From contig RBNJ01000262.1 of NCBI GenBank assembly GCA_003990765.1, forward strand, positions 1 to 35,074: DNA of 35,074 nucleotides. The letters are read 5' to 3'. Of this stretch, positions 6,560 to 32,322 are shown one piece after another. This stretch comes from Jimgerdemannia flammicorona (lineage: Eukaryota). Each line of letters begins with the position of its first letter. Positions within the stretch are counted from its first letter, which is position 1. The position numbers and the translations under genes were made by a program. The notes under the pieces were generated by a model. It had not been told where the DNA came from and did no database searches. It was given only the letters and a program-made list of their open reading frames with translations.

Positions 6560-9500
6560 GGTGGGGGGAAATTTTATTGAATGGGTTACTGGTCATTTGA
6601 TAGGTTGTTTCATTTCAATTTATTTATTTTTTTGTACTTGTACGTGCTCGTCCAGCTTTTTCGCCAGAGTCGTTGCGTTTCTTCTCTTGATCGAACACCT
6701 CTTTCCCCACACCTCCCTCCAACGGCAGCAAACCTCCATCACTATGGATCCCTCGACCCCTTATATAAACATTGTGTCAGCTGCGCCTATGTGTTCCTCC
6801 ATAGCTTCTTTTCTTCTTTATGTACATATGTTAACAATGACAGGATGTTCATCGTTCTTGACGCTCCTGGTTTTATTTTATTTTATTTTATTTTATTGGG
6901 AGATCGGTCGATATGGTCGTTGGACATTTCCGTCGGGATTTGCTGTTGGCGGGAACCTCGGTGAGGGAACGACGAGCAGCATGGAATGGGTTCCACTCTT
7001 CTATCCAGCAAATGTTAATCAAATAAGCAAATTAAACAGATTGGATCCATCTGAACATGGATGTGTCTGCATCGTCTCTTCAAGATTCATCTTAATTCAA
7101 TAAAAGACAAGCCGCTTCTCCCACTGTGCGGGTACGGCTGATTGTGGGTGTCGACAGTGGATGTTTATCGATTGCGCTTCCCGAAGACATGAAAAAAAGT
7201 CGAGGTTGTCGGCTAGGGTGCCGGCTCACCAGATTTACCGTCAGTAACACTTTCTGCCGAACTTTGATAAGCCCGCTCGCCGCATAACATTTTCTGGAAA
7301 AATCGAGTTTCACTAGTCCTAGACCGATTTATGCGTGCTGGGCTACATTTCAGATTCTGAAACGATCGGGTTGACGATATACAGCAGTGAAACTTGGATG
7401 GCACGCGCGTAGGAAAGCCAACGATTGGGTGGGTTCCTTGTGCGCACGAATTGAAACCGGCGTTGCGGATGTGGCGCTGCTGCTGAGCCTTGATTGTCGT
7501 GCCACCTTGCCCCGCGGGCTATCACCATCTCAGAGGGACCCCCAAAGCCGCGCCTCATACCCCTCGGTTGCTTTGTTCTTCTCGATAGCCTGCCTGGAAC
7601 AGCGATGTTATTGATGTCTTAATGTGGCCGTTTTCAATGGCTGGCTTCCTCAATTTGGGAAGACGAAATCTTTAGGGTGAAGCGAGGGGTTCGATCGAGT
7701 AGATGATTTTGGTCTCGCTTTGCTTTCTTTTAGCACGGTTGAAGCTCATAGCCAAGAATATAGTGCCCTTTATTTTATTATTATTATTTTCCTATGGAAA
7801 ACCTAAGAGTTTGTTTTACGTGGTCATAATAATAAGCTGAAAAAAAAAAAAAAAAAAAAGGAGGGAGGGAGGTCATTCTGGCTTGAGAATTTTCCTCGTA
7901 TGCGTGTGGTGATTGTTTGATTCAAACCTACACTCACATCTCTGAAACGAGGTTAGAGTTAAGCTTCACACTGTTCAGCAGAATATTTATCAAGCACGCT
8001 TGATTCCTTATTTCAGATCAAGGCCGCCATTTGCTAGCCACTGCGACTAATCCTTCTTCCGAGATGAAAGAAGCGAACGGGATCGGCTTACGATAGGTGA
8101 TAGGCACGCTTCGGAGAGTTAGCTAATCCTACTTGTCAGCTGACTTGACATCAGCACGTGAACGCGCGCTGCTTTACTATTTGTGACTGACGGCCCGACT
8201 GGTAAGTCCCTCGATTATGCCCATCCGTCGATACATGAGACGGAGGTGACGTTAGGGGATCTTTGTTTTCCTTCGTTCCGGCACTGCTGGGAATAGCGCA
8301 CGTCCACGGGGATTTGGTTTGTCAGGGGAATCAGAAGCATACAGACACTCTATCGCGGATTCATCATGGCACGGTCTTGCCCCTCACTGAAGATCATGAC
8401 CCAGATAAATTCGGACCCAGTAATGTGAGCATTCCTATGCCCCCAAGGATGACTCTCTTATGAACATTCCAATAGAGTCGCCAAACTCCGCAAATAGATT
8501 ATCATTTCCAGCCTGCTGGAATTTCGAGGGACAAATCGTTCATGTCATCGAACAATGTTCTTTCTTTCTTTCTCAGATCTTTGTCTCGCCATTATTGGAT
8601 GGACTATCCCTTTCATTTCCGCGTTCACGGATGTAGCAAATTCCCTCGACGCGGAAATCGCCTATATTATATTCCGCAGGTCCGTCGAGAACAGATTACG
8701 TGGTCATAATCAAGCGCGCGAAAATTTGTCTTCTGAAAAAGAAAGATTCTCTCCACACCAATTTCGCGGAACGACTATCCGTTGACGTACTCGCTGACTC
8801 CCTAAAATCGATCCGTGGTTGGAACAAAAAAGCAGCGAATAGGCTTCATGCATAGCTCATCAAGTCATCAACTCACTTCCTTCGCACGTCTCAAGCACCA
8901 ATCAAATACACGAAAGGCTGGTACACGTGGAAGTGGCCCCAAGGGGATCAATAGCCGAGATCTGCGTTTCTGTGGATCGTTCTCTGGCGGATCAACGAAA
9001 GGCCGTGAGAGAAGCTGATGATCTTTTCGAATGGCGTACGTGGGGTAGCGGGGGGGGGGGAATGGCTTTCGTGCTATGGTGCAGCTAACGGATGTCAGCA
9101 ATACTATTATAAAATTTATACAGTATTATAAATTTATATAGTGATCTCCTTTTTAAGAGTGGTCAAAATTTGGCGGAACAATAAAAAGTGCGTTCATAGA
9201 ATTATAACAAATCCATCAAACAATATTTCTATGATTTTATTTTTTGAATATCTTTTTCCTCATCACGTTCTATTCCTTCAAAATTTATGTAACTTTTGTG
9301 AGGTCGTACTATATACACGTGGGATCGGCGGGGGTTTTTCTGTGGATCATTCTCGTCGTTCCATTCTCGTGACCCTTCGAGCGGTGCATGCGGAACCGTC
9401 TGTCATCTCTGTGCATCAATTCCTGTTTGATGGAATAATCTTTAAGTGGCGGCCCGTGCGTTTGGAAAGTCTTTTCTTTCTTTCCCTTTAGTCTTTCCTC

Positions 9501-10778: not shown

Positions 10779-11267
10779 TGTGTGTTTGTTTTTTTTGGGG
10801 GGGTGAGGGGTGAATTGGATTTGTCGTTTAAGGGGGGTTGAATCGGAGAAGATCCAAGTTGAGATTTATGGGATGGAAATTACGCCCAGGACTTGCCGTG
10901 TTAGTGCAGGCGGGCGGGCGTAGATGCAGGCATGTGACGGAGCTCGCTCCGGCCTAGCCACCTTTTTCGGGAGGCAGCTGCACCCGCAGGGCCCAGAAAG
11001 GCCAGGACTGCCCGTGGTGGCGCGACCGGCACGCCACGAGAAGGCTTCGACGCATAGGCACAGGGTATTAGGTAGGCCAAGAATATCTTGTGTCATATAT
11101 TAAAAGAGCAAGGGCTATGGGAGCTATTTTTATAAACAGCGTCGTGGGTGACTGCCCAATCCTCGACCCCTTTATGAACGAGCAACAAGAAAACAAAAGC
11201 TCTCCCCCGCTAGACCCACCCCATCCCATCCCTATCGACATACCATCACCGCCCACCCACAACCATA

Positions 11268-12975
11268 ATGCTCAACGAGCTACCAGGACAACCCTCCTTT
11301 CTTTCCCCACTCTACACTCCGCGTCCCTCGGACGGCACGGTCCGACGCCCCCCCCGTGTCTCGCCAAAGTTGTTCGACGACGACACCGACACCACCTTCC
11401 GCCGGCGGCGAGACGACGACGACGACGACGACGCGCTTCAGATCATGACCCTCGGCAAGTCCGGCGAAGGCAAGAGCAGCCTGCTGAACGCGATCCTTGG
11501 TGACGACGCATTTCAGGCCAAGATATCTGTATCGGTAAGTAATAGTCCATACCTCATGAACACGGGCTGCGGCATATCTGATGCCGAATAAAATATATAC
11601 GTGTGTACAGTGCCCTTTCTGTCTTTCGCTCGATCCAGCTGAACCAAAATAAATCGCTTGTTTTATCCCCCACCACAGGAGGTGACGAAGGCTGTGGAGT
11701 CACACAGTGGCCGTTGGCTTGGACGACCGGAACATACAGCGGTCAAGTGCGTTGACACACCCACACTCGCCGGTCAGCTGGGCGACCGGGCGAGAGTGGC
11801 GCAGATCGGTAACCTTTTGGAGGCTTGTTTGAATGGTGTGGACGCGTTTCTAATTGTGACCAAAGTCACGCACTATCGGTAGGTACTTGCGTATTTTTGA
11901 ATTAGTATATATTATATTTATCGGAGAAGGGAGAAATTCCTTTTTACGGTTAATAAACAAGTATTTTTTATTTATAGCTTGAGCTGCTTTGAGGATTTGT
12001 TATTATTACTCACTCCAACGAATACTGTCTTGCATGTTTATTTATTAATCCTTCAGGTACGACTCCTCCATCCACGCAACCCTAAAAGTCTACGAGACGA
12101 TCCTCAACCCTTCTTTTTGGCAAAATGCGATCCTAGTGTTTTCCCACGCTGACCCAGAAACCGCCACCTCCTGGTCCGACTCACAACGTCACTTTGACGA
12201 CTTTGCCGCACAAATCGCCAAACAATTCAAGCTCACGACTCCCCCGCCTATCTGCTTCGCCTCGGACCGCCGCAGCTTTGGCAAGACTTCCGCAACGGCG
12301 GGCGGGATCGGCAACATGGGCGCACGGGGCGAGATCATCGTCCACGACGGCACACGGATATGCACGATAGAACCCCCAGCGCGTACGCTCTACGAGAGGA
12401 TCCGCGAGTTTCACACCCGCCCCTACTTCCCCACACATCTCACGCAGTACCTCCATCAGAATCCGCGCCGGACTGTCGCCGATTTCGCCGAGAGGCTCAT
12501 GACGGCTGTCGAGCAGCTCGACGAGTTCCGCGAAGTCGACCGCAGCGCTCATAAGAGATCCCTCTCGGCAGCTTTGTCGCCACGCCCCTCCCTATCTTCC
12601 CAGATCTACGGCATGGGCTCTAACCCTAGCATGGCGTCGTCCATTGCGTCGTTGTCCGGTGCGTCGTCCGGTGCGTCGTCCGCTACGTCGTCCGCTACGA
12701 CGTCTGTTATATCGTCCTCTGCAAAGTGCCGCGTGCCTTGGGAGGGCAGGAACAGGCCGAGAGCCGTTAGCGCAGAGTCGTCGCCTACCCCGTCAGAGAG
12801 TGGGAGCGATCATGGCGGTGGGGGAGGCAGCGGAAGAGTCACTATGACGGCTATGGCGGGGTTGCTGCAGTTGCCCAACAGGCTGAGGCGGAGTAGTTCC
12901 GCCGTTACGTTAAGGGCGAAGGGATTGAAGAGATCTAGTACGTACCTGCCGGCGTCGACGTCGGTCGGTGTGTAG
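11268..12975 (+). CDS. AIG1/GIMAP-like (TRAFAC septin/Toc-related) GTPase, copy 1, ~461 aa, with Ser-rich C-tail; exons 11268-11534, 11679-11878, 12057-12975
   Basis: P-loop LGKSGEGKSSLLNAILG, G2 EVT, G3-like VDTPT, conserved box NGVDAFLIV...R, G4 AILVFSHAD. Canonical GT-AG introns keep the frame. Confidence 0.85.
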
Positions 12976-13500
12976 CGGAAAATGATGGGTGTCGAGGGCG
13001 TGGGTGTGTTGATTTTCTGGATATGGCGCATCTCCGTTGTGTGGCGTAATACTTCACTTCCGATCGGTGGTTGCAATCTCTTTTGTATCCATATTTCTTT
13101 TTTTTTTTTTTTTTTTTTTTTTTTTGTGCAGCCACGATCGGAGGGATGGCCACAACGGGACGGGTAAAATCTTTCCCCTCCCGACCATTTCTCGCTCACA
13201 CGTTGTGTGCTCAAGTGAGAAATGGATGCAGTATGTAATATATAGATAGTAGGGAGAAACCCGAGGAGGACGACATACGTGACCCGCCAAATCGGTCACT
13301 AGCATGGTTACCCTTATTTTAGTACCTGCGGGTGTTACCGACAGGTGGGTTCTGTATCGTTTTTGTATGTCGTCGGTCCATACATAGCTGGGCGGGCCCA
13401 TAGGTGGGCGGGGTTAGGGGAGGGGTAGGTGGGGTGGGGTGGGTGGATAGGTGAGGAAGAAATGTTCAATGTGATTGTAGGTAATAATGTAATTTTCGGT

Positions 13501-13556
13501 TCGATGGGCTCGATGGGCTCGATGGGCTCGATGGGCTCGATGGGCTCGATGGGCTC
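13501..13556. repeat. Perfect 9-bp tandem repeat (TCGATGGGC)x6
   Basis: Directly visible, ~200 bp upstream of the second GTPase ATG. Confidence 0.95.
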
Positions 13557-13750
13557 AATCAGGATAATTAATAATGCGAATGAATGAATGGGTACAAGAC
13601 TTAACAAGTACCATCCCGAATCGCCCCCTGCCTGAATGGCTGCTGTCCCCACGTGCCACCGCTCCTTCTACAAAAATCCGGAGGCTCAGCCCCAAGTCAA
13701 GTCACATCCCGCCCCTTACACCACTCCCCTCAGCATTACAGCCCCTCGCC

Positions 13751-14397
13751 ATGTCTGGCGCTACCTACTACAACTACTACCAGAACGACCCCAATACCCT
13801 TGTTCTGTCCGTCATGGGCGCCATGGGACGGGGAAAGTCCAGCCTACTCAACTCCATCGCTGGCGAGCAGATCTACCAAACTGGCCGCGCTGTCGAGGTG
13901 AGTACTGCGGCGCGTTGTCATTGGTAGCGCCACGTCGATTGAGGCCGGAGTTGAGGTGACAGTGGCGTGCGCATTTGCCGTATGACTGGCCGCAGCAGCT
14001 ATCGGTAGCGCGTACACTCGACGAGCGGACTTGGGCGAGGAGCTCCGTGGGTGGATCAATCTTGGTTGTTGAACACGGCGCGTGTGAGAGATCGCGGTAG
14101 CGAATGACAGCAAAGGTGACTCCTGGTCTAGCCTACTCACGCATCTCTCCATTGCTCTCTCCCTCATCCAGCCCATTACCACGCACGTCGAGTCGGTCAT
14201 CCGACCATGGCGCAACCCGCCCATCTCGCGCTTCTGCCACCTCATCGACACGCCCGGAATGTGCGACTCATCCGTGAGAGACAAGAAGAATGTGCAAGAG
14301 ATGGTTAAGTACTTCAAGAGCCTGTCGTACGGCGTGAGCGCGTTTATTCTAGTATTCAATGTGGAGGATGTCAGGTAGGTCGGGGGGGGGGTGGGGG

Positions 14398-14428
<31 letters not shown>

Positions 14429-15111
14429 ACGCATACGCGAGCTTAATCGTTGTAGATAATTCTTCAGCTCCCACTACGAGGGTAGCATGTAATTCTCCGT
14501 GGCTAAATAATTATCACGCTCACCACACTCTCTCGCACGTGAAACACCCCAGGCTCGACGCCTACACGCAAAACATGCTTCACCTCTTTGAACGCCTCCT
14601 AGGCCGAGACTTTTGGCGCTACGTGATCATTGTCTTCACGCACGTAGACGAGGACAACCGCGACCTTCTCGATGATAACATCGATGTCCTCTCCGACCCT
14701 ACGGACGGCTTCGCGGCAGAGCTTGGGCGGATCTTCGCTCTTGACCCGGCCACGGTCAAGCTCCCAACCATCTTCTTGACGACTAAGAATGTCAAGTACT
14801 CGACATACGCGCACCAGTGCCTGCAGGACCTTTACGACTCCATTCGCGTGCGCGAGGAGCAAGCCCGCGGCAAGAAGTTTTCCTGCCACTGGTTCCGCCA
14901 AATCCTTGCCACACCCTCTGACGAGGAGAAGACAGGATTTATCGTCGCTTCCGTCAGAGAAGCCGTCGGCGCGCTCAGGAACATATTTAGCAGTGGCGGT
15001 GGCGGCGGCAGCGGCGGATCATCCCAAGCGAGGACTGGGTACTCCGGGAGGGGCTCACAGCCGAGGGAGGAGAGGGGGGGTAGTGGAGGTGGATGGTGCC
15101 CGATTCAGTGA
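13751..15111 (+). CDS. AIG1/GIMAP-like GTPase, copy 2, ~302 aa, with C-terminal CaaX (CPIQ); exons 13751-13897, 14172-14374, 14553-15111
   Basis: MGAMGRGKSSLLNSIAG, G2 PITT, G3 LIDTPGMCDS, YGVSAFILVFN...RLD, G4 VIIVFTHVD, Gly-rich linker then CPIQ*. GT-AG introns. Confidence 0.9.
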
Positions 15112-16970: not shown

Positions 16971-17126
16971 ACAGTTCAAGGATTTATATGAAAACACAGG
17001 TATTTATGACATCTACTTTTGGCCATATCGTATCATGAACAAAATGTCAAAGAAGAGAAGTTGAGCATGATTGTTATATATATTTCAATCAAAGCTGCAT
17101 TACCAGCCAAACTTGTTTTCACATAA

Positions 17127-17232
17127 CAGACCTCACGTTACAGACCTCACGTTGCAGACCTCACATTGCAGACCTCATATTGCAGACCTCACATTACAGA
17201 CTTCACATTAAAGACCTAATTACAGACCTTAC
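17127..17232. repeat. 14-bp tandem repeat CAGACCTCAC(G/A)TT(A/G), ~7 copies decaying rightwards
   Basis: Directly visible at the island/AT-rich boundary. Probably subterminal repeats of the adjacent transposon remnant. Confidence 0.9.
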
Positions 17233-17235
17233 AAG

Positions 17236-18350
17236 ATGTCTCACACTTCAGAAAATTCTGCAGTCATTAAGGCAATAAGATTTTTGACCATACAAGCTAT
17301 AATATATGAAATCTATAATGATACAAAAGAGGACAAAGATAAGACTTATTATTATAATAATAGTAGCAGCAGAGATGATATCTATAACAGTAGTAACAAA
17401 TTCACAACCACTTTAAGCAAAAACCCCAACATCTTCTAACTGGACATATAATGTCCTTCTAAAGTACAATAATAAGAAATATAAAGAGATTCTATATATA
17501 AGTAGAGTTATCTTTAACAAATTAATTTCTGAGATAGAAAACTATACTGTATTTCAGAATAAGTCATCAAACTCTCAGACTCAAGTCTATATTCAAGTTA
17601 TTGTTCTGCTTAAAATCTTGATAGATTGATGATATATGTTGAACTGGTAGTTTTATTTGAAATATCTGAAAGCTCTATTGATATTTTCTATATATAGTTA
17701 ATTATAGCAATTATAGATAATCTTGGTAAAAAATATATACAGTAGTCTCAGAATGATAATTAATATTACAAAGTCTATGCTGAATTTGAATGTCTTGCTG
17801 AATTTCCCAGAGTTATTAGAGCAATTAACTGCACATATCCTATTTCAAAAGTCTCTAAAAAGTACAAAATAGTATACTAGTTAAAAAAAATAAGATATTT
17901 ACTTAATGTTTAAGAAACTATCAATCATCTTAGCTTCTTTACTAGTTATTATATTGGGTGGTCTAAATAGAAGAATATTTAATAAGTTAATTATTTTATA
18001 ATAATATAAAATACTTATATATAATAATTATATTATTAGAGATAATAGATATAAACCTTATACATTATTTCTAATCTATCTATATCTAAAACCAAAGCTA
18101 TCAAAAGATTGTCAAAGAATATTCAATAAGAAACTATCAAAAACAAGAGTGATAGTTAAATTACCTTTAGCTACTTAAAGATAAAATATATTAATTACAA
18201 AATAGTTTATTACTCAATATTGAGCTAATAATTACCTTTATTATATAAGTAAGATTTTCACATTTAATAGGTCTTTAAAACAAAGATATTTCAAAAGCTG
18301 TAGATCTTATTTAAACTACTTTTATTTTCTATAATTTTATTCAAATCACT
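17236..18350 (+). pseudogene. Second, heavily decayed Harbinger (HARBI1-like) DDE transposase
   Basis: FQNKSSNSQTQVYIQVIVLL, EFPRVIRAINCTYP (=GFP.VIGAIDGTH), FFTSYYIGWS, IIRDNRY (=GDSGY), FNKKLSKTRVIV, TFSYLK, FYNFI. Many stops. Confidence 0.7.
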
Positions 18351-18568
18351 AGTAATAGAGATGAAACAAAAATATAGATAATAAGAATATAAATAAAGAT
18401 AAGAATGAAAATATAGAAAAGAAAGATAAGAGCAAAAATAAGCAAAGAAGTAGAAAAGTGAAGGTATAAAATTCTCAGCTATATTATTATTAGTTTTTAT
18501 TCTTACTTTTTCTTTATATTAATTGACAGTTAGTTTTTAATAATCTTAATTATAAAGATCAAGATATT

Positions 18569-18906
18569 GCAGAGGAGGAAGAAGGCTCAGCGGGAGCCAA
18601 GGGAGTGAACCCAGAGCCAGTGTCAAAGCGAACAGAAGACATGTGGAAGAGCATGTATAAGGGGGATGAACAAAGAACGTAACCGAAAATGCATCAGCCA
18701 TTTATTGCCACGTAAAAACGTGGTCCTTATATACAAAATACGACATCCCAAAAGGGAGGATACGCCACAACTCGGGGCAAACTGAATTAGGAACCACATG
18801 ACTGCCGGAGATAGGCGGAGATAAAGGGGGAGCCAATCCCAGTTGCAGGATAAAAATCACAAACAAACACAAACAAAACAAATCCAAATCGAGATTAAAA
18901 AACATC
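18569..18906 (-). repeat. Inverted pseudo-LTR arm (338 bp), reverse complement of 19060-19397
   Basis: Aligned by eye; differences seen are transitions, mostly at CpG. Confidence 0.95.
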
Positions 18907-19395
18907 CTTGCCCCCTCCGGGGTCTCACGCTCACTCCGGGGTCTCGGCCTTACTCCGCTCCCCTCTGCTGCCTTCGGCCCCTCGCTTCGCTCGGGCTCAC
19001 TGCGGCTCGCTCCGTTTCGGCCTCACCCCTCGCTCGCACTCACCCCTCCGGGGTCTGCAGATGTTTTTTAATCTTGATTTGGATTTGTTTTGTTTGTGTT
19101 TGTTTGTGATTTTTATCCTGCAACTGGGATTGGCTCCCCCTTTATCTCCGCCTATCTCCGGCGGTCATGTGGTTCCTAATTCGGTTTGCCCCGAGTTGTG
19201 GCACATCCTCCCTTTTGGGATGTCGTATTTTGTATATAAGGACTGCGTTTTTATGTGGCAATAAACGGCTGATGTATTTTTGATTACATTCTTTGTTCGT
19301 CCCCCTTATACATGCTCTTCCACATGTCTTCCATTCGCTTTGACACTGGCTCTGGGTTCGCTCCCTTGGCTCCCGCTGGGCCTTCTTCCTCCTCT
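18893..19395 (+). repeat. 5' pseudo-LTR (503 bp)
   Basis: Direct repeat of 22330-22832. Includes the GC-rich hairpin cassette, TATATAAG (19233), AATAAA (19260) and the first ~24 codons of ORF1. Confidence 0.95.
19233..19265 (+). promoter_or_regulatory. Candidate TATA box (TATATAAG) and AATAAA within the pseudo-LTR
   Basis: Both motifs are present in all three repeat copies, ~90 and ~60 nt upstream of the ORF1 ATG. Function inferred. Confidence 0.45.
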
Positions 19396-20320
19396 GCTGT
19401 ACCGCCTGCCCTCGGGGCCTCCGTCCTCATCGACGAGCTCATGGATGAGGTACATACTTCCTCCTCCCCCTCCCCCTGCCTTCACCCCCGCCACTGTCTC
19501 CTTCGAGACCTACATCTCTTCTGCCATCCTTTCCCTCCCCCTGGACCTTCGTCCTTCTGGTCGTCCGCTCCTCTCTCAGTTCCGGTCGGTTCTTGCCCTC
19601 TCCGCCAAGGAGGCTCGTCTCCGTCATGATGTCGACGTCATCGCTCCGCCTGCCGTCCGCTATTCCATTCTCCCCGAGGCCTGCCACCAAGCCCTCTCCA
19701 AAGAGGTCCGTGCCGCCACTGCCACCGCCAAGCTTACTGCCGCTGATGCCGCCGCTGCTTCCACCACCACTGCTCCTCTGCCTACCTCCCCCGAGGTTTC
19801 GGTCTCCAAGGCCATCCGCGCCAAAGCTCGTGCTGCTGCTCGTGCTGAGGTTTATTCCTTCGCCACTGCCGCCGCCAAGGCCCCCTCCAAGACCCCCACC
19901 AAGACCCCCACCAAGCCCAACCAGGCTTTGTCGGCCTCTTCCTGGTCCCCCTCCCCTGCCAAGGCTTCCTCCTCCATTCCCCCTGCCCCCAAGCATGGCC
20001 GCCAACTTGGTTCTCGCCCCGTCGGGGCCTGGCCTTGTGCTGTCTGCTCCGGTCGCCTCCACCATGCCTACTGGCATCCGGCCAAGTCCGTCTGTCCTCA
20101 TGGTGGTGTTCCTCATGCTGCTGCCCCTTCGGCTGCTTGCTCGCCTTCAGCCTCCTCTGCTGGTTCTTCCTCCGCCTCTTCTCCCTGTGCCCCTGAATGT
20201 AAGGGCTGCACGAAAGCCTGTGGCTGCAAGGTCTGGCACTCTGATGGGGTGTGCTCTCATTCGTCGAGTTCGCCACCTTCAAAAAAAGTCAGAGGGAAGG
20301 GGAAGGCCTCCTGCTCTTAA
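19324..20320 (+). CDS. PLE ORF1: Ala/Pro/Ser-rich, basic, with C-terminal Cys/His clusters (putative Zn/nucleic-acid binding) and NLS-like PPSKKVRGKGK
   Basis: Long open frame 19280-20320. The likely start ATG 19324 (MSSIRFDTGSGFAP...LIDELMDEV) is in another frame, implying a frameshift near 19455. Motifs CAVCSGRLHHAYWH..VCPH and CAPECKGCTKACGCKVWH..VCSH. Confidence 0.65.
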
Positions 20321-22335
20321 ACTTCCCCCTAGCATGGTTCTCCCCCGGTGTCCCCGTCCCTTCTCGGATTCCGTCGTCACTTCTGGTGCGCCCTGAGTGG
20401 TTCCTCATATTGTCCCCCCTTTGCCTTTCCCAGTTGCTTGTCCCAAATTTTCGAGTTTACTCTTCTCTTAGAACACTTTTGTCTCTTCCTTTTTCTTCGG
20501 CTGACTGCCCCCTTTCTCCCCTTCAAGTCTTTGCCTTATTCTTGGGTCCTCGCTTTGTTTTTCCTGCAACTCCCTCACAATTCTCCTTCACCGATCCGGC
20601 TCGTCTAACACGTTTTCATCGTGCTCTTGACCTTGCCATTTTCTTTCAAGATCGCGGTGAGATGCCCTCTCGCTATTTTGTTCCTAGCAATTGGGTCCCC
20701 CCTCCCAATGTCTCTTCACACTGCGTATTCCTCGACATGGCTTGCTCACTGTCCATTCCTGGATGAGCTCGCTCTTGCTTGGTTTCGGACTGTGCCGTGC
20801 ATACCGCGCTTAAATCGGTCAAGCAATTGCCTATGCACTTGCTCACAGTCACTGATAAGAATCAGGGTTTTGCACTTATTCCTAAGTCGCTCTACCTTGA
20901 TGGCCTTTCTGCCCTCCTTCGAGCCACGGCTTACGAGCCTAGTGCTCTTGGATTGGATGAGGTTCTCACTCTTCTTCAGGTTTCTCTGGCTCACACTAGA
21001 TCACTTTCGGATTCCCCATTCGCGAACCCTGTTTTTAACTTCTTCCAGGACTCTTTGTCCTCCCCGGATATTTCTCTTCTGGTTTTCTATGCTCTTCCTA
21101 AAGTTCATAAGCCTATTTTGGCTTGGCGTCCTATTACGGCTGCTTACAGTTCTCCTACTACCGAGATTTCGAAGTGGTTATCCCGCTTCTTTCTCTCCTG
21201 GATGGCTCTCTTACAACACCATCTTGGGCCTGAGTATACTATTCTTCGCGATACTCAGGAGCTCGCCCTTCTCTGCTCCACCATTGTGCCTGTTCATCAC
21301 TTTTCCCATTTGGCCTCTGGTGACTTCTCTTCCTTCTATACTGCTATTCGTTTTGATGAGATCGATGATTGCCTTCGCTTCTTGGGTTCCTTGGTTTTTC
21401 CTTTGGATTCCTCGGTTTCGCTGGCTTCTATTGTTGAGCTTACGCTTCTCGTCTGCAGCTCCAATTATTTTGAGTCGGCCCTTGGCTCCTTTCACCAGAC
21501 TTCTGATATTGCCATGGGTACGAATTGTGCCCCCACCCTTGCCAACCTCGTTGGCCTGGCCCACGAATTGCATACGTTACGTGATATTACTTCACCTCTT
21601 TCCATTGCATTCTGGGCTGGGGATATCTTCTTTCGCCGATACATTGATGACTTTATTGTCTTCGCTGTTGCTGGTGTTGATATCCCTAGTATGTTCCTGG
21701 GCGTCTACCCTCTCCACCATTCTATTACCTGGGTGTGTGGTATGACTAGTATTCTCTTTTTGGACCTTTCCATTTCTCTTTCTCCTTTCCGAACTGTTGT
21801 TTATTCTCGTTTTCCCCGTTCCCAACAGTTCCCTGACTTCTTGTCCAACCATCCTTGTCACACTCTTCTTGAATGTGTTTGGGGTGAGGCTCATCGTCTT
21901 GCACTATGCTGCTCCCGTTGTTCGGATTGGGTGTCTGCTGTTCGGGTTCTTGGCAACTTCGTAGTCCATCGTCGTGCCTACCCTATTTCTATCGTTCGCG
22001 ATCTGCTTGCTTCTGTTGAATGGTCTGTTGTTCGCTCTACCCTTCTCTCTCCTCTTTATCTCCCCTCCCTTCCCTCTCTCCCCCCTTACCCTCTCCGTAC
22101 CCCCTCTTCTTTCCCACCCCCGATTCTCGTTATATCATTTGATCATGCTCGCTGGGTCGCTCAATGCCCTGATACCGTCCTGTGCTCTTCTCTTTCACAC
22201 CATGGACTTTCATCTCTTTCCCGACGCCCTCTGATTGCTCATTTGCATCTTCCTTCTGTTTCTTCTTCAATCCATCGCTCTCGTTTTGCATTTTCGTCAC
22301 CTTCTGGTGCCTCCGGTTCTGCCGGAGAGGATTAA
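20251..22335 (+). CDS. Penelope-type reverse transcriptase (ORF2), no GIY-YIG domain, one in-frame TGA at 20764-20766
   Basis: ORFs 20251-20766 and 20779-22335 share a frame. PLE motifs: LFLGPRFV, SNWVPP, TDKNQG, FYALPKVHK..AWRPI..SPT, GDFSSFYTAI, Q..IAMGTNCAPTLANL, RYIDD, FLDL, SNHP, and linker P.IAH..LPS..HRS, followed by a stop. Confidence 0.92.
20281..20330 (+). promoter_or_regulatory. Candidate -1 programmed ribosomal frameshift signal
   Basis: A-AAA-AAA is in the correct ORF1 phase (TCA AAA AAA), followed by a stem GGGGAAG (20299-20305) / CTTCCCC (20322-20328). ORF2 is -1 relative to ORF1 and has no ATG in the overlap. Confidence 0.6.
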
Positions 22336-22832
22336 AAAACATCCTTGCCCCCTCCGGGGTCTCACACTCGCTCTGGGGTCTCAGCCTTACTCCGCTCCCC
22401 TCCGCTGCCTTCGGCCCCTCGCTTCGCTCAGGCTCGCTGCGGCTCGCTCCATTTCGGCCTCACCCCTCACTCGCGCTCACCCCTCTGGGGTCTGCGGATG
22501 TTTTTTAATCTCGATTTGGATTTGTTTTGTTTGTGTTTGTTTGTGATTTTTATCCTGCAACTGAGATTGTCTCCCCCTTTATCTCTGCCTATCTCCGGCG
22601 GTCATGTGGTTTCTAATTCGGTTTGCCCTGAGTTGTGGTGCATCCTCCCTTTTGGGATATCGTATTTTGTATATAAGGACCGCATTTTTACGTGGCAATA
22701 AACGGCTGATGCATTTTCGGTTACATTCTTTGTTCGTCCCCCTTATACACACTCTTCCATATATCTTCCGTTTGCTTTGACACTGGCTCTGGGTTCGCTC
22801 CCTTGGCTCCCGCTGGGCCTTCTTCCTCCTCT
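22330..22832 (+). repeat. 3' pseudo-LTR (503 bp)
   Basis: Direct repeat of 18893-19395. The RT stop codon (22333-22335) lies within its first stem arm. Confidence 0.95.
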
Positions 22833-23649
22833 ATTTTTACTTTGAAGTAAGTGATCACTACTATTCAAGGTAGTGAAAGAGTTAGAATTATAATTATAAT
22901 TAGTAGTATATAGACTACTACTATGAAGATAGATATTTTTATAGTTATTAAATTATTTATAACTTAGAAAAATCAGCTAAATTAGTAAACTAACTTGAAA
23001 GTTTTTGATATATACATATTATCTGTAACTTTCTATATTCTATATATATTTTTCATTTTTAATTATCAGTATAGTCATATGATATATAAGCTGTAATATA
23101 TTGTAAATTCTATTCAAGTAGAGAATATAGAGCCTATAGTAAAGAAAAAGTAAGTTAAAGAGGACTAATTTAAATACAATGAGCTGAATCAGATAGAAAT
23201 AAGATATAGTGAGATAGTGTAAGATGAGGTAAAAGTAATAATATAAAATAATAGAGGTGATGAGATGAGATTGAAAAGTAGTAAAACAGACTACTAGATA
23301 ATTATTCTAAACTATCAAAGAATTATAAGCTATATTTTAAATATAAAACAAAATATATGAACTACTAGATCAGATAATTATTACTAAAACTATTATAGTA
23401 TTATTAACTAGTACTGGTCTTTTTTGTAGCTAAGAACCTTTAGTATCTAAATAATCTTGCTCAGTATTTTCTTTATACTTTTTCTAAAAAAAATATCATT
23501 ACTCAACTTTAGATCTAATGTATCTCTAAATATCTCTCTACTAGTTTTTCAAATACTATTAGTTTTTTTTAGAATATATTACTAGCTAGGTCCAGTAGTA
23601 ACAACTCTGTAAATATAATTAAAATCTATATCATTCTATTTATATTTAT

Positions 23650-25237
23650 TGTCACATAGTAGTTGCTGAGTCTTTCAAATATATCAGATTCTCTCCAAGA
23701 TATATCTCTTAGACTAATCTCAAGTTTGTTATAAGCAAGTTCTTATTGAAGTACCTTTCCAAGATCTTATAGTCCTCAAACTTCTTATCTTTAAAGTATC
23801 CTATTATTTCTTAGATTGTTTACATAGAATTGAGAGTAAGTGAACTGGAACTGACTTTATTTTAAAGGAAATAAGAAGGGTATTTATACAAAATATAATT
23901 CAATGATTGCTAAGTTATAAAGCTAAATATAAATTTCAATAACCAAACAAAATACTGGAATATAGAAAACTATAGTTGTCCATATAAATAGTTATATAAG
24001 TTTAGGATAGTAGTAGAATTTCAGTAGTATAGAAAAAGAATATCAGAAGAATTTTAAGTTACATAAGATCAGAATATCAGAAAAATAACAATTATATAGA
24101 AAAAGGATACTGGTAGAATCTGATGTTACTAAGAACTTAGAGCAGAAAGTTCAGAACTATAGAGGCTTTATCTTTATCACTATTAAGACTAGAGATTAGA
24201 GATAGGATGTCTTTGAAGAAGATGAGGTCTGTAAATATTTTGTCTATTTTGCATACTTTACATATCTCATATATGTCATGCAGGATGATGTCATCACTAA
24301 TAATATTATCACATTCAGTAGCAGTGAGAACAAAGAGGTCTGGGGCTCTCCAATCTATGATATTCTCTTCTACAAAATAAGAAATAAATGTAGGGTCTTA
24401 GAGAGATCTAACCTAGATACTGGGGCCTTGGAATTCTGAGATCAATTATTGTAGAAATTGATCTGGGTTGTTCTGGAAGATGGGATACCAGAAGTCTTCT
24501 ACTTCATTACTATTGAGGGTGATAGTAGACTGAGTCTCTGTGGCCACTATGGTCTCCAGTACATTAGTATAGCAGGCAGACAGTTTCTTGAAGTCTAAGA
24601 TTCTAGTATACTCTAAGTTGGAGATTAATCATAGTGCATGCCAGAAGATCTGATAAATCTTCTTTACTATCCTTATTTTATATATATCCATGGAGATAGC
24701 ATCTTGAATCTCCTGAAGACTGGCTTGAGGAAACTTCTGACAGAAGAGGTTTCTTATTTCATACTTTTGCTATATCTAGAGATATTCAGTAGTGATGGTG
24801 ATCCTTGTTTCCATTTCATAGTAATAGAGGATATAATGATAGGGGTTACCAGTATCTAGGTTGATGTTAGGAGTCCTTCTTGTATAGGTCCCTATGACTC
24901 TTCTGATGTCTTGGAACATCTTATCCTAGACTGAGGGGTCTTGGTGATTTCTGGATCTTAAGGTTTGGCAAGTGGTAGGCATTTTGTTTATAGTAAGTCT
25001 TTAGAACTATGTATTTCTGTGAGCTTTATTTGGATTGCTACTACTATAGTTTCTTGATCCTTCTTTTATATTTCTCAAGATGTCTGTCTTGTAGTCATAA
25101 TGACTCATGGTTGGTCATTATTACTTATCTTATAGCTCAGATGAGTTATGCTATATAATCTTCTTGTACTCTGATCTGGTAGTATAAGGAAAGGCTGTCT
25201 TCTGTACTGATATCATTATTCTGAGGTCACTATTACA
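23650..25237 (-). mobile_element. Solo LTR copy A of a Gypsy family (~1.59 kb)
   Basis: In element orientation TGTAATAG...GTGACA; 4-bp flanks TTAT/TTGT; homologous to copies B-D. Confidence 0.8.
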
Positions 25238-25313
25238 TTGTTTTTATTAATAGTATTATATCAGTAATAATTTTTCTATTATATAAATAATATTTATTAG
25301 TTAATATATATAA

Positions 25314-26914
25314 TATAACAGTAATCTTAGAATAGTAATATTATCATAGAAGATAGCCTTTCCTTATAAGCTATCAATTAAAGTATAAGAAGATTATATA
25401 GCATAACTTATCCAAGCTATAAGATGAGCAATAATGACTAACTATGAGTCATGAAAACCATAAGATAGACATCTTAAGGAATATAAAAGAAGAACTAGAA
25501 AACTACAGTAGTAGCAACTCTAATAAGACTTATAAAAACTTAAAATAGTTCAAAAGACTTATTATAAATAAAATGCCTATCACTTACTAAACTATAAGGT
25601 CCAGAAACTACCAAGGCTTCTCAGTCTAAGAAAGGATATTCCAAGACATCAGAAGAGCTATGAGGATCTGCACTAGAAGGATTTCTAGTCTCAATCTGGG
25701 TACTAGTGACTCTTATTACTTTACTCTCTACTACTATAAAATAGAGACAAGGATCACTACTACTATTGAATATCTCTAGATATAGCAGAAATATGAAATA
25801 GGAAATCTCCTCTACTGAAAATTCTCTCAGGCCAGTTCCCAAGAGATACAAGATACTACCTCTATAGATATATATAAATTGAGAGTAGCTAAAAAGATCT
25901 ATTAGATCTTCAGATATACATCTTAGTCAATTCTCAACTTAAAGTATACCAAAGTCTCAGACTTCAAGAAATTATCAGCTTACTACAAAATATACTAGAA
26001 GCCATAGTGGCTACAGAAGCCCAATTTACTATTACTCTCAAAAGTGATGAGGTAGAAGAGTTCTGAAATCCCATCCTTGAGGACAATCCAGATCAATTCT
26101 TATAAGGATTAATCTCAGTATTCTAAGGTCTCAGTATCCAGATCAGATACCCTCAAGATTTCACCTTTTTTCCCTACTTTGTGAAGAAAAATATCATAGA
26201 TTAGAGAACTCCTGATCTCCTTTCCACCACCATCAAATATGATGATGTCATCAGCAATAATATCATCCTACTAATTGATATTTGTGAAATGAATGAAACA
26301 GAAATATTTACTGATCTTATTTTCTTTAAAGATATTCTGTCTCTGACCTCTAGTCTTAATGATAGTAATGAAGATAAAGTCCCCAGAATTCTAAATATTC
26401 TACTCTAATTTGTTTATATAACTATTTTTTTGAACACTTGAATATTCTGATATCTTGATCTCATATAACTATCAGAAATTATTTCAATATTCTGATCTTG
26501 TGCAACTGATTGTACAGGTACTTAAATTTATACTTATAATCTGATATTTCCTATATTCAAATATTTTATTTAGTTATTGAATTTTATATTTAGCTTTATA
26601 TCTTAGTAATTATTGAATTATATTCTATATAAATACCCCTCTTATTTCTTTTAAAATAAAGTTAGTATTAAAAACACTCAAGCATTCAAGTACTCAACTA
26701 TTCAAAAGTACAAAAGTTCTAGTCCTCTATTCAATTCTATGCAAGTAAATCCAAGAAACAATAGAACAGTTTAAAGATAAGAAGTTTGAAGACTATAAGA
26801 TCTTGAGAAAGTACTCCAATAGAACTTACTTATAAGAAACTTATAGTTGGTCTAAGAGATATATCTTGAAAAGAATCTGACATACTTGAAGAACTCAGTA
26901 CCTACTATATGACA
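25314..26914 (+). mobile_element. Solo LTR copy B (~1.6 kb)
   Basis: TATAACAG...ATGACA (decayed TGTAAC...GTGACA) with a perfect 4-bp TSD ATAA (25310-25313, 26915-26918). Confidence 0.82.
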
Positions 26915-27345
26915 ATAAATAAATATTATTAAAGAATTTTGAATCTTTTGATCTTATTCTCATATATCTTGAAATAATTCTTTAAGAGAAAAAAGTGTCT
27001 GTATAAAATCTCTATAGATATTATTTTACTTGATCTCAAAGATACATATAAATAAGTTGGTCATCATTACGTTTAGTTACTTTGAAATCAATATAACTAT
27101 ATTCTTTATCACTATTTACATATTGCTCTAGATATAACTCTATACTAGTAACTATTATTACTACTATTAGCAAGATACTACCAATAAATTGAGTATGAAT
27201 TATTTTATTTTTATGAGCACTTATTGTGATAAGCAAATAGTATAATATAGCTAGAGATGTAAACTTCTAGCATAGCATAGTTACTCATGACTACTATACT
27301 TATAATTAGTCAGGATACCAAATCAGAGTTATTTATCTATATTCT

Positions 27346-28270
27346 GAGGACATACTTATGTTTGACAGATACACTTATGTCTTGCAGATATACTTATATC
27401 CTACAGATATACCCATATCCTATGAACACACTCAAACATTACTAGAGATAGTAAATTTATAATTATCCAGATAGCAATCAGATAGTAACTATAATATATA
27501 AAATACTTCAGAGATAAGAGTGAATAAATCTCAATCTAAATTGAAGTATAAACTAAAGAAGCCTCTAAAGATTGAGCATTGGTCTCCTTTTCCCACTTTG
27601 GTCTACTTTCTAATATAAAGAACAAGTCTGTTTTTGATTCACTTGCTAGATAAGTCTAAAGAATCTGAGAAATCTACCAAGTTCAAGGAAGAACTTTACC
27701 ACTATTTGAATAATCTGTTACTTAAGAAATAAGCTACCATTTTTAAAAAAAAAAGTCTGTCATCTTATCACCAAAGTCAGTCTGTTGATACAACTTTATA
27801 GTAGAGCCAGTCTATTAACATAACTATATATAAACAAAGTTAGTCTTGATACAACTTTGCTCAAGAAGTCTGCCATTCCCAGAGAACCCATAAGAAACCT
27901 TACTATAAGTCGGTCTTCTGATATAACTTCACAGTAAAGCCAGTCTATGATATAACTCTGTACAAATGAAGCTAGTTTTTGATATAACTTACTAAGAATC
28001 TATGATATCTAAGTTATCTAAGTTATTCAAATTATCTGCTCTCTGAGTTATTCAAATTATTCATACTATCTGAGTTATTTATCTATTCTTAGTAAGCCTA
28101 ATTCAGAAGAATTTACACTATCTGATATTTCCAGAAGAACCAATTCAGAAAGAATCTGCATCATTTGAGTTATCTAAGTTATCTGTACCATTTAAGTTAT
28201 TATTCAAGAAGTATACTGATTTAGAAGAATCTATACCAAACTAAGTTATTCACTAAATCAAGTTATCTAC
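27346..28270. repeat. Degenerate tandem repeat arrays in unclassified decayed DNA
   Basis: ~19-bp unit CAGATACACTTATGTCTTG (~27346-27430), repeated AGTCT..GATACAACTT units (~27775-27990) and GAGTTATC/AAGTTATT units (~28005-28270). Confidence 0.55.
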
Positions 28271-29173
28271 CAAATTGTATAAAGAAGTCCACCAAGATCA
28301 TTATGCTAAAAATTGTATACTTTTGGAGATCATTGTGCTATATAGAGATTGTCTACTACTCAAGAAAGAAACTGCTAAATTGCTAGATTATTCTATATAA
28401 GAAATTCTGTCATACTATACTAAATTATCTATTATATCAAATCACTACTATATCTAGTTCCAATAAGGAAATCAATACCATTGTATTCAGACTTGACTAT
28501 TATACTGCTAAATACTAAGAACCTCAGGAATTTTAGAATATTTTATTGCTTTTTGACAAAGTAACTAAAGGCTCAAGCCAAACTATATTAACCCCCAATC
28601 TTATAATTTATCTCTATTGAGCCAGGTACATATATTACACTATACTAAATCTACAATTTTTATCTAAAATAATAATTTAGAAATAATTAATTATATATAA
28701 AATAATACAATCTTATATAAAAGCAAAATATATATATCTTAATATTATTTATATAATGAGTAAAATTTTTATTTTTTTTTTATCAATTATTATAGTATAT
28801 ATAATATAATATATTAATAATAAATATAATATTTCTTCCAAAATAAAGAACTGATATTATAATATCAGTTAGCAGTAAATATACTCTACTTTATATCACA
28901 ATTATAAATATTATTAAAAATATAAATTTATATCCAAATTAAAAGTAAGTATATATTTAATATTATTAGTAATACTATTTTTTATCAAGAATATAGATAG
29001 GTGATTTCTCTTATTACTTAAAAATAAGTACTTCTTAACTAATTCTAAAAAATATAAAAGGATATATTATATATATATATAATGAGTATATATTTCTACT
29101 CTATATAAAATCTTTATTTTTTATTTAAGATATAAAATCTTTATTATTATCTAGAATATATATATATTATTAT

Positions 29174-30707
29174 TGTAATAGTGACTCCAGAATGATGATA
29201 TCAGCACAAAAGACAGCCTTTTCTTGCAAGCCACCAGATTAGAGCACAAGAAGATTATACAGCATATGAGATGAGCAATGATGACCAACTGTAAGTCATT
29301 GTGACTATAGTATAAGTATTCTAAAGAATATAAAAAAAGGATCAAGGAACCACAGTAGCAGCAACCAACAAGAACCACCAATCCCAAAATAGCTCAAATA
29401 CTTACTACAAATAAAATGCCTGCTGCCCACCAAACCTCAAGGTCAAGGAATCACCAAAGTATCTTGGTCGAGGAAAGGATGTTCTAAGACATTAGAAGAG
29501 CCATGGGGACCTGCTCAAGAAGGACTCCTAGTGTCAACCTGGGTACTGCAGACTCTTATCACTTCATTCTCTACTACTGTGAAATGGAAACAAGGATCAC
29601 CATTGCTAATGAATGCTTCCAAATATGGTAGGAGTACAAAATAGGAAACCTCCTCTGCTGGGAGTTCCCACAGGCCAGCACCCAAGAGCTACAAGATACC
29701 ACTCCTATGGATATATGTGAAATGAGGACAGCTAAGAAGATCCATCAGATCTTCAGGTATATACCATGGTTGATCCCCAACTTGGAGTATATCAGAGTCT
29801 CAGACTTCAGAGACCTATCATCCCACCATATCAATGCACTAGAAGCCAGGGTGGCTACAGAAGCCCAGTCCACTATCACCCTCAACAGTGAAGAAGTAGA
29901 AGACTTCTGGCATCCTATCCTTCAGGACAACCCAGACCAATTCCTGCAAGGATTGATCTCAGTATTCCAAGACCCAAGCATCCAGGTTAGACCTCCCCAA
30001 GACTCCACATTTATTCCCTATTTTGTGGAAGAGAACCTCATAGACTGGAGAGCTTCAGATCTTGTTCCTGATTTCCCCGCCAAACATGATGATGTCATTG
30101 GTGATAACATCATCCTGTGCGATATATGCAAAATATGTGACCTACACAATAAGTTCGCAGATCTCATCTCCTTCAGTGATGATGATGATGAGGATGAAGC
30201 TCCCATGGTCCTGAACTTTCTGCTCTAAGTTCTTTGTTACACTGAATAATGCCAGCACCAGTATTCTCATGTAACACTGGATAATACCAGTACTGGTATT
30301 CTGAGATAATGTGAAATTGTTCCAGCATTGGCATTTTGATGTGACACTAAATAATGCCAGCATCCTGAACCTGTATAACCATCAGTGCCAGCCCTGGAAC
30401 TTAGTAGTTTTAGTTATTGGAATTTATATTTAGCTTTATATCTTAGCAACTATTGAATTATATTCTGTATAAATACCCCTCTTATTTCCTCTGAAATAAA
30501 GTCAGTTTCTCTTAGTACAATACACACACTTCCTTACAAGCAATCTAAGAGATAACAAGACAGTTAAAGATAAGAAGTTTGAGGACTATAAGACCTTGGG
30601 AAGGTACTCCAATAAGAACTTGCTTATAACAAACTTGAGTTAGTCTAAGAGATATACCTTGAAGAGAATCTGGTATATTTGAAGGACTCAGTGACCACTA
30701 CATGATA
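29174..30707 (+). mobile_element. Solo LTR copy C (~1.53 kb), least decayed
   Basis: TGTAATAG...CATGATA, flanked by TTAT (29170-29173, 30708-30711); TATAAATA at 30468, AATAAA at 30495. Confidence 0.82.
29416..30228 (+). pseudogene. LTR-encoded ORF of unknown function (~270 aa; two premature stops in this copy)
   Basis: ATG 29416 is in frame with the 173-aa ORF 29707-30228. The first stop (TAA) is CAA in sister copies. The homologous frame is recognisable in all four LTRs. Confidence 0.7.
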
Positions 30708-32312: not shown

Positions 32313-32322
32313 TCTTCTTCCT
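32313..32322 (-). other. Polypurine tract (PPT)
   Basis: AGGAAGAAGA abuts the start of the 3' LTR. Confidence 0.65.

What the first reader, a model, noticed from the sequence alone, without database searches (positions are those of the whole stretch)
18569..19397. 830-bp foldback whose outer end stops at the same repeat position as the element's far end
Seen: 18569-18906 is the reverse complement of 19060-19397, and the 3' repeat ends at 22832, equivalent to 19395. Both element termini therefore fall within 2 nt of the same site (...CTTCCTCCTCT), giving ~340-bp terminal inverted repeats. The inversion point coincides with a 14-15 bp inverted repeat that is intrinsic to the repeat unit. Inference: the ends are not random truncations. 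Either both sides of a DNA break primed cDNA from the same defined RNA end and were joined through the stem, or the element replicates via a hairpin/ITR intermediate.
Basis: partly seen in the sequence, partly recalled or inferred. Interest (0 to 1): 0.8.

Follow-up and report, generated by a model that had tools for sequence, protein, structure and literature searches.

The report
Nuclease-less retroelement with flip-flop hairpin end
The foldback is the standard left end of a fungal jumping gene, present in hundreds of copies, that has a reverse transcriptase but no DNA-cutting enzyme; its insertion scars suggest it copies itself onto both sides of a chromosome break and joins the two copies through a built-in palindrome.

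Summary
The foldback is the left end of a 4.5-kb Penelope-like retroelement (ORF1 plus telomerase-like RT, no endonuclease found, no telomeric repeats) with roughly 300 copies in an Endogonales fungus. All 94 termini end within 4 nt of one site 72 nt into ORF1, and the flanks echo the next template bases (G, C, T). The spacer is 153-154 nt in 57 of 58 hairpins. The loop occurs in both orientations (33:8); three copies switch strand inside it, in register; 9 are head-to-head dimers. Arms of one insertion share subfamily alleles, so they are not assembly chimeras. Targets lose 1-15 nt or gain ~850-nt duplications, never a short duplication. Best reading: both ends of a DNA break prime reverse transcription at one internal site, present twice on the RNA, and the cDNAs pair through the palindrome. 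The layout is known from endonuclease-bearing animal Penelope elements; the literature seen says fungal nuclease-less ones lack it. This scan noted such elements before elsewhere in this genome; the family-wide statistics, loop isomers and allele phasing are added here. No raw reads or RNA were available.

The parts
18569..18906 (-). Inverted outer arm (copy of the pseudo-LTR arm, its 3' end facing the left flank)
   Evidence: shares alleles with the internal arm in family copies
18893..18907 (+). 15-nt stem, first half; the inversion junction lies within it
18907..19059 (+). 153-nt spacer: imperfect palindrome of G/C blocks and C/T linkers; found in both orientations in the family
19059..19073 (+). 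15-nt stem, second half (first base mutated in this copy)
18893..19395 (+). 5' pseudo-LTR (stem-loop-stem plus arm), overlapping the first 72 nt of ORF1
19394..19398 (+). Inferred reverse-transcription start site (all termini map here; next template bases echoed in flanks)
   Evidence: inference
19324..20320 (+). ORF1, alanine-rich, long helices, Cys/His tail; about 405 aa in intact copies; here frameshifted near 19452 and lacking 225 nt at 19760/19761
   Evidence: no family or fold match
20281..20330 (+). Candidate -1 frameshift signal (A7 run followed by a stem) where ORF1 overlaps ORF2
   Evidence: A7+GTCA in 64 of 71 copies, ORF2 is -1 to ORF1; function inferred
20245..22335 (+). ORF2: Penelope-like reverse transcriptase (DKN motif, RT core, thumb), no GIY-YIG; in-frame stop at 20764-20766 in this copy; its stop codon lies in the 3' stem
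22330..22832 (+). 3' pseudo-LTR, ending at the same site
18568..22833 (.). Target site inside an older AT-rich repeat: about 4 nt lost, no duplication, not telomeric
   Evidence: empty-site homologues L102, L104

Best explanation
An endonuclease-less Penelope-like retroelement that inserts at pre-existing chromosomal breaks by two-ended priming. (1, shown) The unit is stem-loop-stem + arm + ORF1 + RT + stem-loop-stem + arm. (2, inferred) The RNA starts near the first stem and holds the RT start site twice, at the end of each arm. (3, inferred from microhomology and scars) The two 3' ends of a host break each anneal by 1-3 bases at a start site: one copies the whole RNA from the 3' site, the other only the 5' repeat. 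(4, inferred from isomers and mosaics) Both cDNAs end in the same palindrome, which pairs in register within or between them; extension and repair fix one loop orientation or the other, or a mosaic. Two long cDNAs give a head-to-head dimer, two short ones a solo hairpin, re-priming from a cDNA end gives tandems. (5, shown) Copies then decay by CpG transitions.
For: Fixed ends: 94 of 94 termini within -4..+4, 71 within -1..+1. Flank bases match the template's continuation at both end types: +1 G 46 of 94 (background 0.17, p 2e-12), +2 C 42 of 94, +3 T 46 of 94. Fixed junction: spacer 153-154 nt in 57 of 58. Loop as in window 33, flipped 8, dimers 9, solo 1-2; three flipped copies switch strand inside the loop at paired positions. 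Arms of one hairpin share non-CpG minor alleles: 131 vs 33+/-6 permuted (41 pairs), dimers 33 vs 11+/-5 (9 pairs). In 24 monomers the outer arm carries the 5'-repeat haplotype and the 3' repeat another in 3, the reverse pattern in 0, and a haplotype of its own in 1. Long+short joins exceed independent pairing (27 vs about 18 expected, p 0.0005-0.008). Scars in 11 of 33 elements with a homologous empty site: 1-15 nt lost in 5, 846 and 876 nt duplicated in 2, about 170-1030 nt apparently lost in 3, 1 unresolved; no short duplication in 10 of 10 or 15 further blocks. No GIY-YIG motif in 22 of 22 copies; none of 31 fetched GIY-YIG loci (holding the 34 matches) has a Penelope RT; 66 scored matches to an EN+ protein all stop before its nuclease domain. 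Fixed internal RT starts are shown in vitro for an EN+ relative (PMC11167929).
Against: All mechanistic steps are inferred from decayed copies (about 4.5% from the family majority); no RNA or raw reads. Symmetric pairing predicts 1:1 loop orientations, but 33:8 is seen (p 1e-4), which needs an extra bias. The rod fold of the cDNA strand is significant with RNA parameters (z -4.1) but not with DNA parameters (z 0.2). The 3' ends also echo ORF1 bases, so source copies must have been tandems or the 3' end arises by strand transfer. ORF1 has no known fold, so a hidden nuclease is not excluded; only 66 of 458 candidates were scored. Duplications of about 850 nt are not explained by a simple break. 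Samples are top-scoring hits and favour intact copies; about 6 of 44 blocks seen on both sides have one non-standard end.
Confidence: 0.6

Rival explanations
1. Single start site with LTR-like strand transfer: both break ends prime at the 5'-repeat/ORF1 site; one cDNA jumps from the RNA 5' end to the 3' repeat and copies the whole element before meeting the other.
For: Both end types echo ORF1 bases equally; seamless tandems exist (C270, C2247); all three arms share 28 variant calls in 24 monomers.
Against: In 3 of 24 monomers the 3' arm has another haplotype than the two 5' arms, which would need jumps between RNAs; tandem copies that could serve as two-site templates exist (4 of 51 3' repeats continue into ORF1).
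Confidence: 0.17
2. The foldback is inherited, not remade: source copies are transcribed end to end, and flipped loops and dimers come from later recombination between the inverted arms.
For: Explains the near-invariant junction and the excess of one loop orientation; recombination between 336-nt inverted arms would flip the loop (established knowledge).
Against: Left ends show the same primer-type microhomology as right ends; three distinct in-register mosaics switch within 4-7-nt blocks; tandem junctions start at loop positions 4-22; flipped copies have arms no more alike than others (median 16 vs 18 differences); one copy has an outer arm from another haplotype.
Confidence: 0.08
3. Hairpin/ITR replicon: cDNA snaps back at the stem, self-primes, and replicates or integrates as a hairpin-ended DNA, as parvoviruses or poxviruses do (their flip/flop ends are recalled, not tested).
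For: Two loop isomers, head-to-head dimers centred on the loop, purine-purine mismatches in 55 of 61 non-canonical juxtapositions on the cDNA strand; snap-back would also make the two 5' arms alike.
Against: No Rep/HUH, resolvase or integrase found; does not explain why the outer left end stops at the RT start site with primer-type microhomology. Snap-back may still be one step of the best explanation.
Confidence: 0.07
4. A nuclease acts after all: ORF1 hides one, or a host or partner enzyme nicks the target; or self-priming occurs on an antisense RNA, as proposed for rotifer Penelope palindromes (PMC3846280).
For: Hundreds of internal copies are many for chance breaks; 846- and 876-nt duplications imply two distant nicks; the antisense strand folds well with RNA parameters (z -4.1).
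Against: Scars are heterogeneous with no short duplication; no target consensus beyond +3 apart from a weak C at +8; no Penelope-type nuclease among scored candidates.
Confidence: 0.12
5. Assembly artefact: short-read foldback or misjoins produce the palindrome, the flips or the dimers.
For: Fragmented assembly (35,354 contigs); long identical runs between arms in many copies; C270 and C778 share a 239-nt flank at 100%; no reads could be checked.
Against: Arms differ by 6-38 changes yet share subfamily alleles; flips occur with longest identical runs of 41-58 nt and runs do not differ between classes (p 0.48); a flipped copy has continuous flanks in 4 homologues; mosaics cannot come from a graph misjoin.
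Confidence: 0.04

Closest known systems
EN+ Penelope-like insertions with two direct and one inverted pseudo-LTR (Pen2a_Av of Adineta vaga, PMC3846280; Naiad/Chlamys, PMC8557442)
   Same: Same layout; in Pen2a_Av the inverted repeat also overlaps the direct one by 15 bp, and the repeat includes the start of the ORF; palindromes at the inverted junction.
   Different: Those encode GIY-YIG and give 8-10-bp duplications and an optional 30-40-nt tail; here no nuclease, no short duplication, one end site only, a 183-nt imperfect palindrome in two orientations.
Coprina (EN- Penelope-like elements of fungi; PMC13159263, PMC8557442)
   Same: DKN motif, RT plus thumb without nuclease, upstream coiled ORF1, fungal host.
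   Different: Coprina are telomeric, low-copy, flanked by telomeric repeats and direct repeats, with hammerhead ribozymes; this family is internal, has hundreds of copies, an inverted end, and neither telomeric repeats nor a hammerhead were found.
PAc (Poseidon of Anolis) internal RT initiation (PMC11167929)
   Same: Genomic ends map to a fixed site inside the start of the ORF (111-118 nt there, 72 nt here); both DNA strands are extended from the same site.
   Different: PAc cuts its own target, starts at two adjacent sites and without homology to the primer; here 1-3 nt of homology are seen.
L1 twin priming and endonuclease-independent insertion (PMC1920257 abstract; twin priming from search listings and recall)
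   Same: Two target ends priming on one RNA; target deletions at break-repair insertions.
   Different: In L1 these are minority events with variable inversion points; here they appear to be the rule, with a dedicated joining palindrome.
Flip/flop hairpin termini of parvoviruses and poxviruses (recalled)
   Same: An incompletely paired hairpin found as two inverted-complement isomers; head-to-head dimers.
   Different: No Rep or resolvase, no capsid; isomers are integrated retro-copies.

Membership tests
Penelope-like elements (PLE) | RT of the PLE clade with N-terminal motifs, DK(G/N) motif, core and thumb | tested here: met
   2,564 hits at E<=0.001, including RT+GIY-YIG proteins; motifs aligned
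Penelope-like elements (PLE) | Pseudo-LTRs, direct and inverted, partial tandems | tested here: met
Penelope-like elements (PLE) | Hammerhead ribozyme in the pseudo-LTR (absent in Naiads) | tested here: not met
   Rfam scan gave two chance hits only; core motif absent from the repeat in 22 of 22 copies
EN+ PLE (Penelope/Poseidon, Neptune, Nematis, Hydra, Naiad, Chlamys) | GIY-YIG endonuclease N- or C-terminal to RT | tested here: not met
   ORF2 ends after the thumb; no motif in six frames of 22 copies; no Pfam hit
EN+ PLE (Penelope/Poseidon, Neptune, Nematis, Hydra, Naiad, Chlamys) | Short target-site duplications | tested here: not met
   small losses or ~850-nt duplications
Coprina (EN- PLE) | No endonuclease; DKN-type RT | tested here: met
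Coprina (EN- PLE) | RT falls in the Coprina clade | tested here: inconclusive
   Quick tree of 52 rows: 5-row clade (SH-aLRT 98) with P0001, P0038 (Racocetra fulgida), P0039, P0041, apart from the GIY-YIG rows; no named Coprina reference was in the set and the careful tree did not finish
Coprina (EN- PLE) | Telomeric position with telomeric repeats at the junction | tested here: not met
   No (TTAGGG)2 in 22 elements or their 200-nt flanks (host repeat unit assumed); internal empty sites in ordinary repeats
Hairpin/ITR replicons (parvovirus-like, Rep/HUH) | Rep/HUH or resolvase gene | tested here: not met
   ORF1 model is low-confidence, so weak
Hairpin/ITR replicons (parvovirus-like, Rep/HUH) | Extrachromosomal hairpin DNA | not testable with these tools
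   no raw reads listed
DIRS / TIR DNA transposons | Tyrosine recombinase or DDE transposase acting on the inverted ends | tested here: not met
   no such domain; RT is PLE-type

The most novel reading that the evidence does not exclude
A distinct lineage of fungal Penelope-like elements has replaced both the endonuclease and the telomere-docking module with a dedicated cis-acting 'joining palindrome': a purine-laddered cDNA hairpin that pairs two independently primed cDNAs, so that the element routinely spreads by bridging double-strand breaks, leaving virus-like flip/flop isomers. The inverted ends of all Penelope-like elements would then be made by the RT and the palindrome, not by the nuclease.
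Probability: 0.4. Interest if true: 0.8.

Novelty: new variant of a known kind. Interest (0 to 1): 0.62.

Why it matters
How Penelope-like elements make their inverted ends is an open question; PMC8557442 ascribes it 'very likely' to endonuclease cleavage, and PMC3846280 states that fungal nuclease-less elements lack this organisation. A nuclease-less family with hundreds of internal copies, one fixed start site and one fixed joining palindrome is a natural control: it separates what the RT does from what the nuclease does, and gives a minimal two-component system (RT, RNA, broken DNA) to test in vitro. It also bears on how a telomerase-related RT can heal or bridge breaks away from telomeres.

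Tried and rejected
Rfam scan of 18300-23100: two chance hits. Metagenome locus scans with the window RT and with P0039 found no relative, so the architecture could not be checked in another species. Sequencing runs: no RNA holder listed; one soil metagenome with share 0.12; its contigs cover 30 of 30 bins at 88-99% but list no joint and only 8 of 145 pieces are shown, so they neither confirm nor refute the junction. ORF1: no homologue, Atlas best 0.79 unnamed, no match to a fused Coprina-like N-terminus, pLDDT 45 helical model, no fold hit. RNAalifold on 16 loops shows no real covariation (copies too close). Single decayed window repeat folds only weakly (z -1.6/-1.8). A circular or rolling template with one stop probability was rejected because solo hairpins are rare. 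An intron between ORF1 and ORF2 was considered; the apparent acceptor would cut a conserved RT N-terminal motif (my reading), so a -1 frameshift is preferred. My first 'no duplication' result (30-nt flanks) was incomplete: longer flanks showed two ~850-nt duplications; longer ones are missed where both flanks are short. RIP-type mutation rejected: loss is CpG-biased (21% vs 2-4%). Look-ups of earlier findings by sequence and by words were blank.

Full report
Observation. The inverted pair 18569-18906 / 19060-19397 is 338 nt at 95% with 153 nt between the arms, and 22330-22832 repeats 18893-19395. The junction lies in a 15-nt inverted repeat that also brackets the loop in the 3' repeat.

The element. 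18569-22832 is a GC-rich block in AT-rich DNA. ORF2 (20245-22335) is a Penelope-like RT: 2,564 relatives at E<=0.001, some with GIY-YIG. In a quick tree of 52 rows it sits in a 5-row clade (SH-aLRT 98) with an RT from Racocetra fulgida and three metagenome proteins, all of DKN type where the motif is covered, apart from the GIY-YIG rows (the careful tree did not finish, and no named Coprina was included). The ORF ends after the thumb, as do P0001 and P0039. ORF1 starts at 19324, inside the repeat, and has no homologue or fold match. ORF2 is in the -1 frame to ORF1 at an A7 run kept in 64 of 71 copies and followed by a stem, so a frameshift fusion is likely but untested. A neighbouring lipase gene matches proteins labelled Jimgerdemannia and Endogone, so the host is an Endogonales fungus.

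No nuclease, no telomere module. No GIY-YIG motif, no hammerhead core in the repeat and no (TTAGGG)2 in element or flanks in 22 of 22 copies; Rfam is blank. Of 34 GIY-YIG matches in the genome, the 20 and 11 loci fetched hold no Penelope RT and most read as homing endonucleases (my reading). A search with an RT+nuclease protein gave 66 scored matches of 458 candidates, none reaching the nuclease part. This is not exhaustive.

Family survey. The repeat has 819 candidates, ORF1 327, and an exact 30-mer 185 matches: roughly 300 elements. Among 116 distinct loops in fetched loci, 51 follow the RT (44 end in flank, 4 continue into ORF1, 3 other), 61 are hairpins and 4 are other junctions. Hairpins: 33 as in the window, 8 with the loop reversed relative to the ORFs, 9 head-to-head dimers, 2 flank-to-flank (1 true solo), 9 cut off or complex. 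Of 58 with both arms, the spacer is 153 nt in 54, 154 in 3 and 136 in 1 (internal deletion). One search selected for this junction; the ORF1-selected sample (30 loci) did not, and gave 11 window-type, 5 flipped, 4 dimers, 2 tandems, 4 complex or cut off, with 2 loci lacking a loop. Three flipped copies in that sample switch strand inside the loop (positions about 17, 21-25 and 40), at positions that pair in the fold. Complete monomers are 4444-4494 nt; the window copy is 4262 nt. About 6 of 44 blocks seen on both sides have a truly non-standard end; 5 more were flagged only because of the gap in my reference or a nested insertion.

Ends. All 94 termini (43 right, 41 left, 10 other) stop within -4..+4 of 19395, 71 within -1..+1. 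Flank bases match the template's continuation at +1 (46 of 94), +2 (42) and +3 (46), in both end types, and G at +1 is enriched even when position 0 mismatches (10 of 25, p 0.006). This is the signature expected of a DNA 3' end annealing to the RNA at a fixed internal site, in line with the internal start shown for PAc (PMC11167929).

Target scars. No short duplication in 10 copies or 15 further blocks. With long flanks, 2 of 33 testable blocks have junction-to-junction duplications of 876 and 844-846 nt, and one is unclear. Homologous empty sites were found for 11 of 33: losses of 4 (window), 15, 2, 5 and 1 nt; the two duplications; apparent losses of about 174, 966 and 1034 nt, which could be indels in diverged homologues; one unresolved. 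Deletion-type scars are what endonuclease-independent L1 insertions leave (PMC1920257, abstract).

Artefact tests. Arms of one hairpin share non-CpG minor alleles far above permutation (131 vs 33+/-6, 41 pairs; dimers 33 vs 11+/-5, 9 pairs) while differing by 6-38 mostly CpG-type changes. Flips do not need long identical runs (minimum 41 nt; p 0.48 against window-type). A flipped copy has continuous flanks in four homologues. No reads could be laid; an independent soil sample holds the family but shows no junction.

Origin of the arms. In 24 monomers, non-decay variant calls were shared by all three arms 28 times, by outer and inner 5' arms only 9 times (3 elements), by outer and 3' arm only 0 times, by inner and 3' arm only 2 times (1 element whose outer arm has its own haplotype). 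So the outer arm is normally copied from the 5' repeat of the same template, occasionally from another molecule. Long+short joins are over-represented against independent pairing (7: 27: 1-4, p 0.0005-0.008).

The palindrome. The 181-nt stem-loop-stem of a little-mutated natural copy folds as a rod; aligned to its own complement, 55 of 61 non-canonical juxtapositions on the cDNA strand are purine-purine, partly a matter of composition. The loop alone beats shuffles on that strand with RNA parameters (z -4.1) but not with DNA parameters (z 0.2), nor on the sense strand. The in-register mosaics are the better evidence that it pairs during insertion.

Mechanism and rivals. Best: two-ended priming at breaks, joined by the palindrome (0.6). 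The 33:8 bias, the ~850-nt duplications and the source of breaks are unexplained. Rivals: single site with strand transfer (0.17), hidden or host nuclease or antisense self-priming (0.12), inherited foldback with later recombination (0.08), hairpin replicon (0.07), artefact (0.04).

Comparison and novelty. It works like EN+ Penelope insertions in layout and like EN-independent twin priming in scars. It is a Penelope-like element; it fails the nuclease test for EN+ clades and the telomere and hammerhead tests for Coprina. PMC3846280 describes the same layout in rotifers and says fungal EN- elements do not share it; PMC8557442 notes rare EN- elements inside EN+ clades (shrimp, Selaginella, Chara). 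[quoted passage not shown] Seen: PMC11167929 parts 1-2 of 4; passages of PMC3846280, PMC8557442, PMC13159263, PMC6431247, PMC4209133; abstract and outline of PMC1920257. Earlier notes of this scan describe such elements in this genome; two match my loci in length (8139-8140 and 5583 nt) and so are probably the same DNA, not independent support. They prompted the long-duplication test and the purine-ladder check.

Verdict. Real, a new variant of a known kind, interest 0.62.

Noticed in passing
window 20281-20330: A7 run plus downstream stem where ORF1 and ORF2 overlap in the -1 frame; kept in 64 of 71 copies: candidate programmed frameshift.
   Followed up: partly
G000 C2437:2866-7347 (L179) and C6624:941-5423 (L182): Ordinary monomers flanked by 876-nt and 844-846-nt target duplications abutting both ends, confirmed by single-copy homologues; origin unexplained.
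   Followed up: partly
G000 C270:9054-20862 and C778:10231-15004: An 11.8-kb trimer (dimer plus seamless tandem); its flanks share 49 and 239 nt at 100% with the flank of the C778 copy: recent rearrangement, allele or local misassembly.
   Followed up: partly
G000 C20 (L137), C778 (L134), C4758 (L124), C26052 (L071), C23063 (L046): Extra tandem arms or whole repeats joined at the fixed end site, starting at loop positions 4-22 or arm positions 1-46: looks like re-priming from a cDNA end.
   Followed up: partly
window 23640-32313: Four decayed copies of another ~1.6-kb repeat in alternating orientation, 72-84% alike; no RT match, no Pfam hit for 29632-30225.
   Followed up: no
window 3163-3435 and 3470-3901 (-): 132-nt inverted repeat with a 9-nt spacer beside a frame that reads like a PIF/Harbinger transposase fragment (recalled motif; Pfam gave only a weak unrelated hit).
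   Followed up: no
window 11214-15111: Two adjacent small-GTPase-like genes with P-loop motifs; weak AIG1 hit for 14353-15108 (E 0.002).
   Followed up: no
window 17119-17233 and 13501-13556: Tandem arrays of 14-nt (8.4 copies) and 9-nt (6.2 copies) units.
   Followed up: no
L081-L100, L227-L237: Many GIY-YIG homing-endonuclease-like frames on contigs up to about 26 kb or more, one beside cox3-like sequence: an intron-rich mitochondrial genome or nuclear copies of it.
   Followed up: no
run X1 laid on window 18500-22900: A soil metagenome holds the same family; the listed differences are mostly T-to-C and A-to-G against the window, i.e. a less decayed version, and it continues into the segment missing near 19770.
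   Followed up: partly
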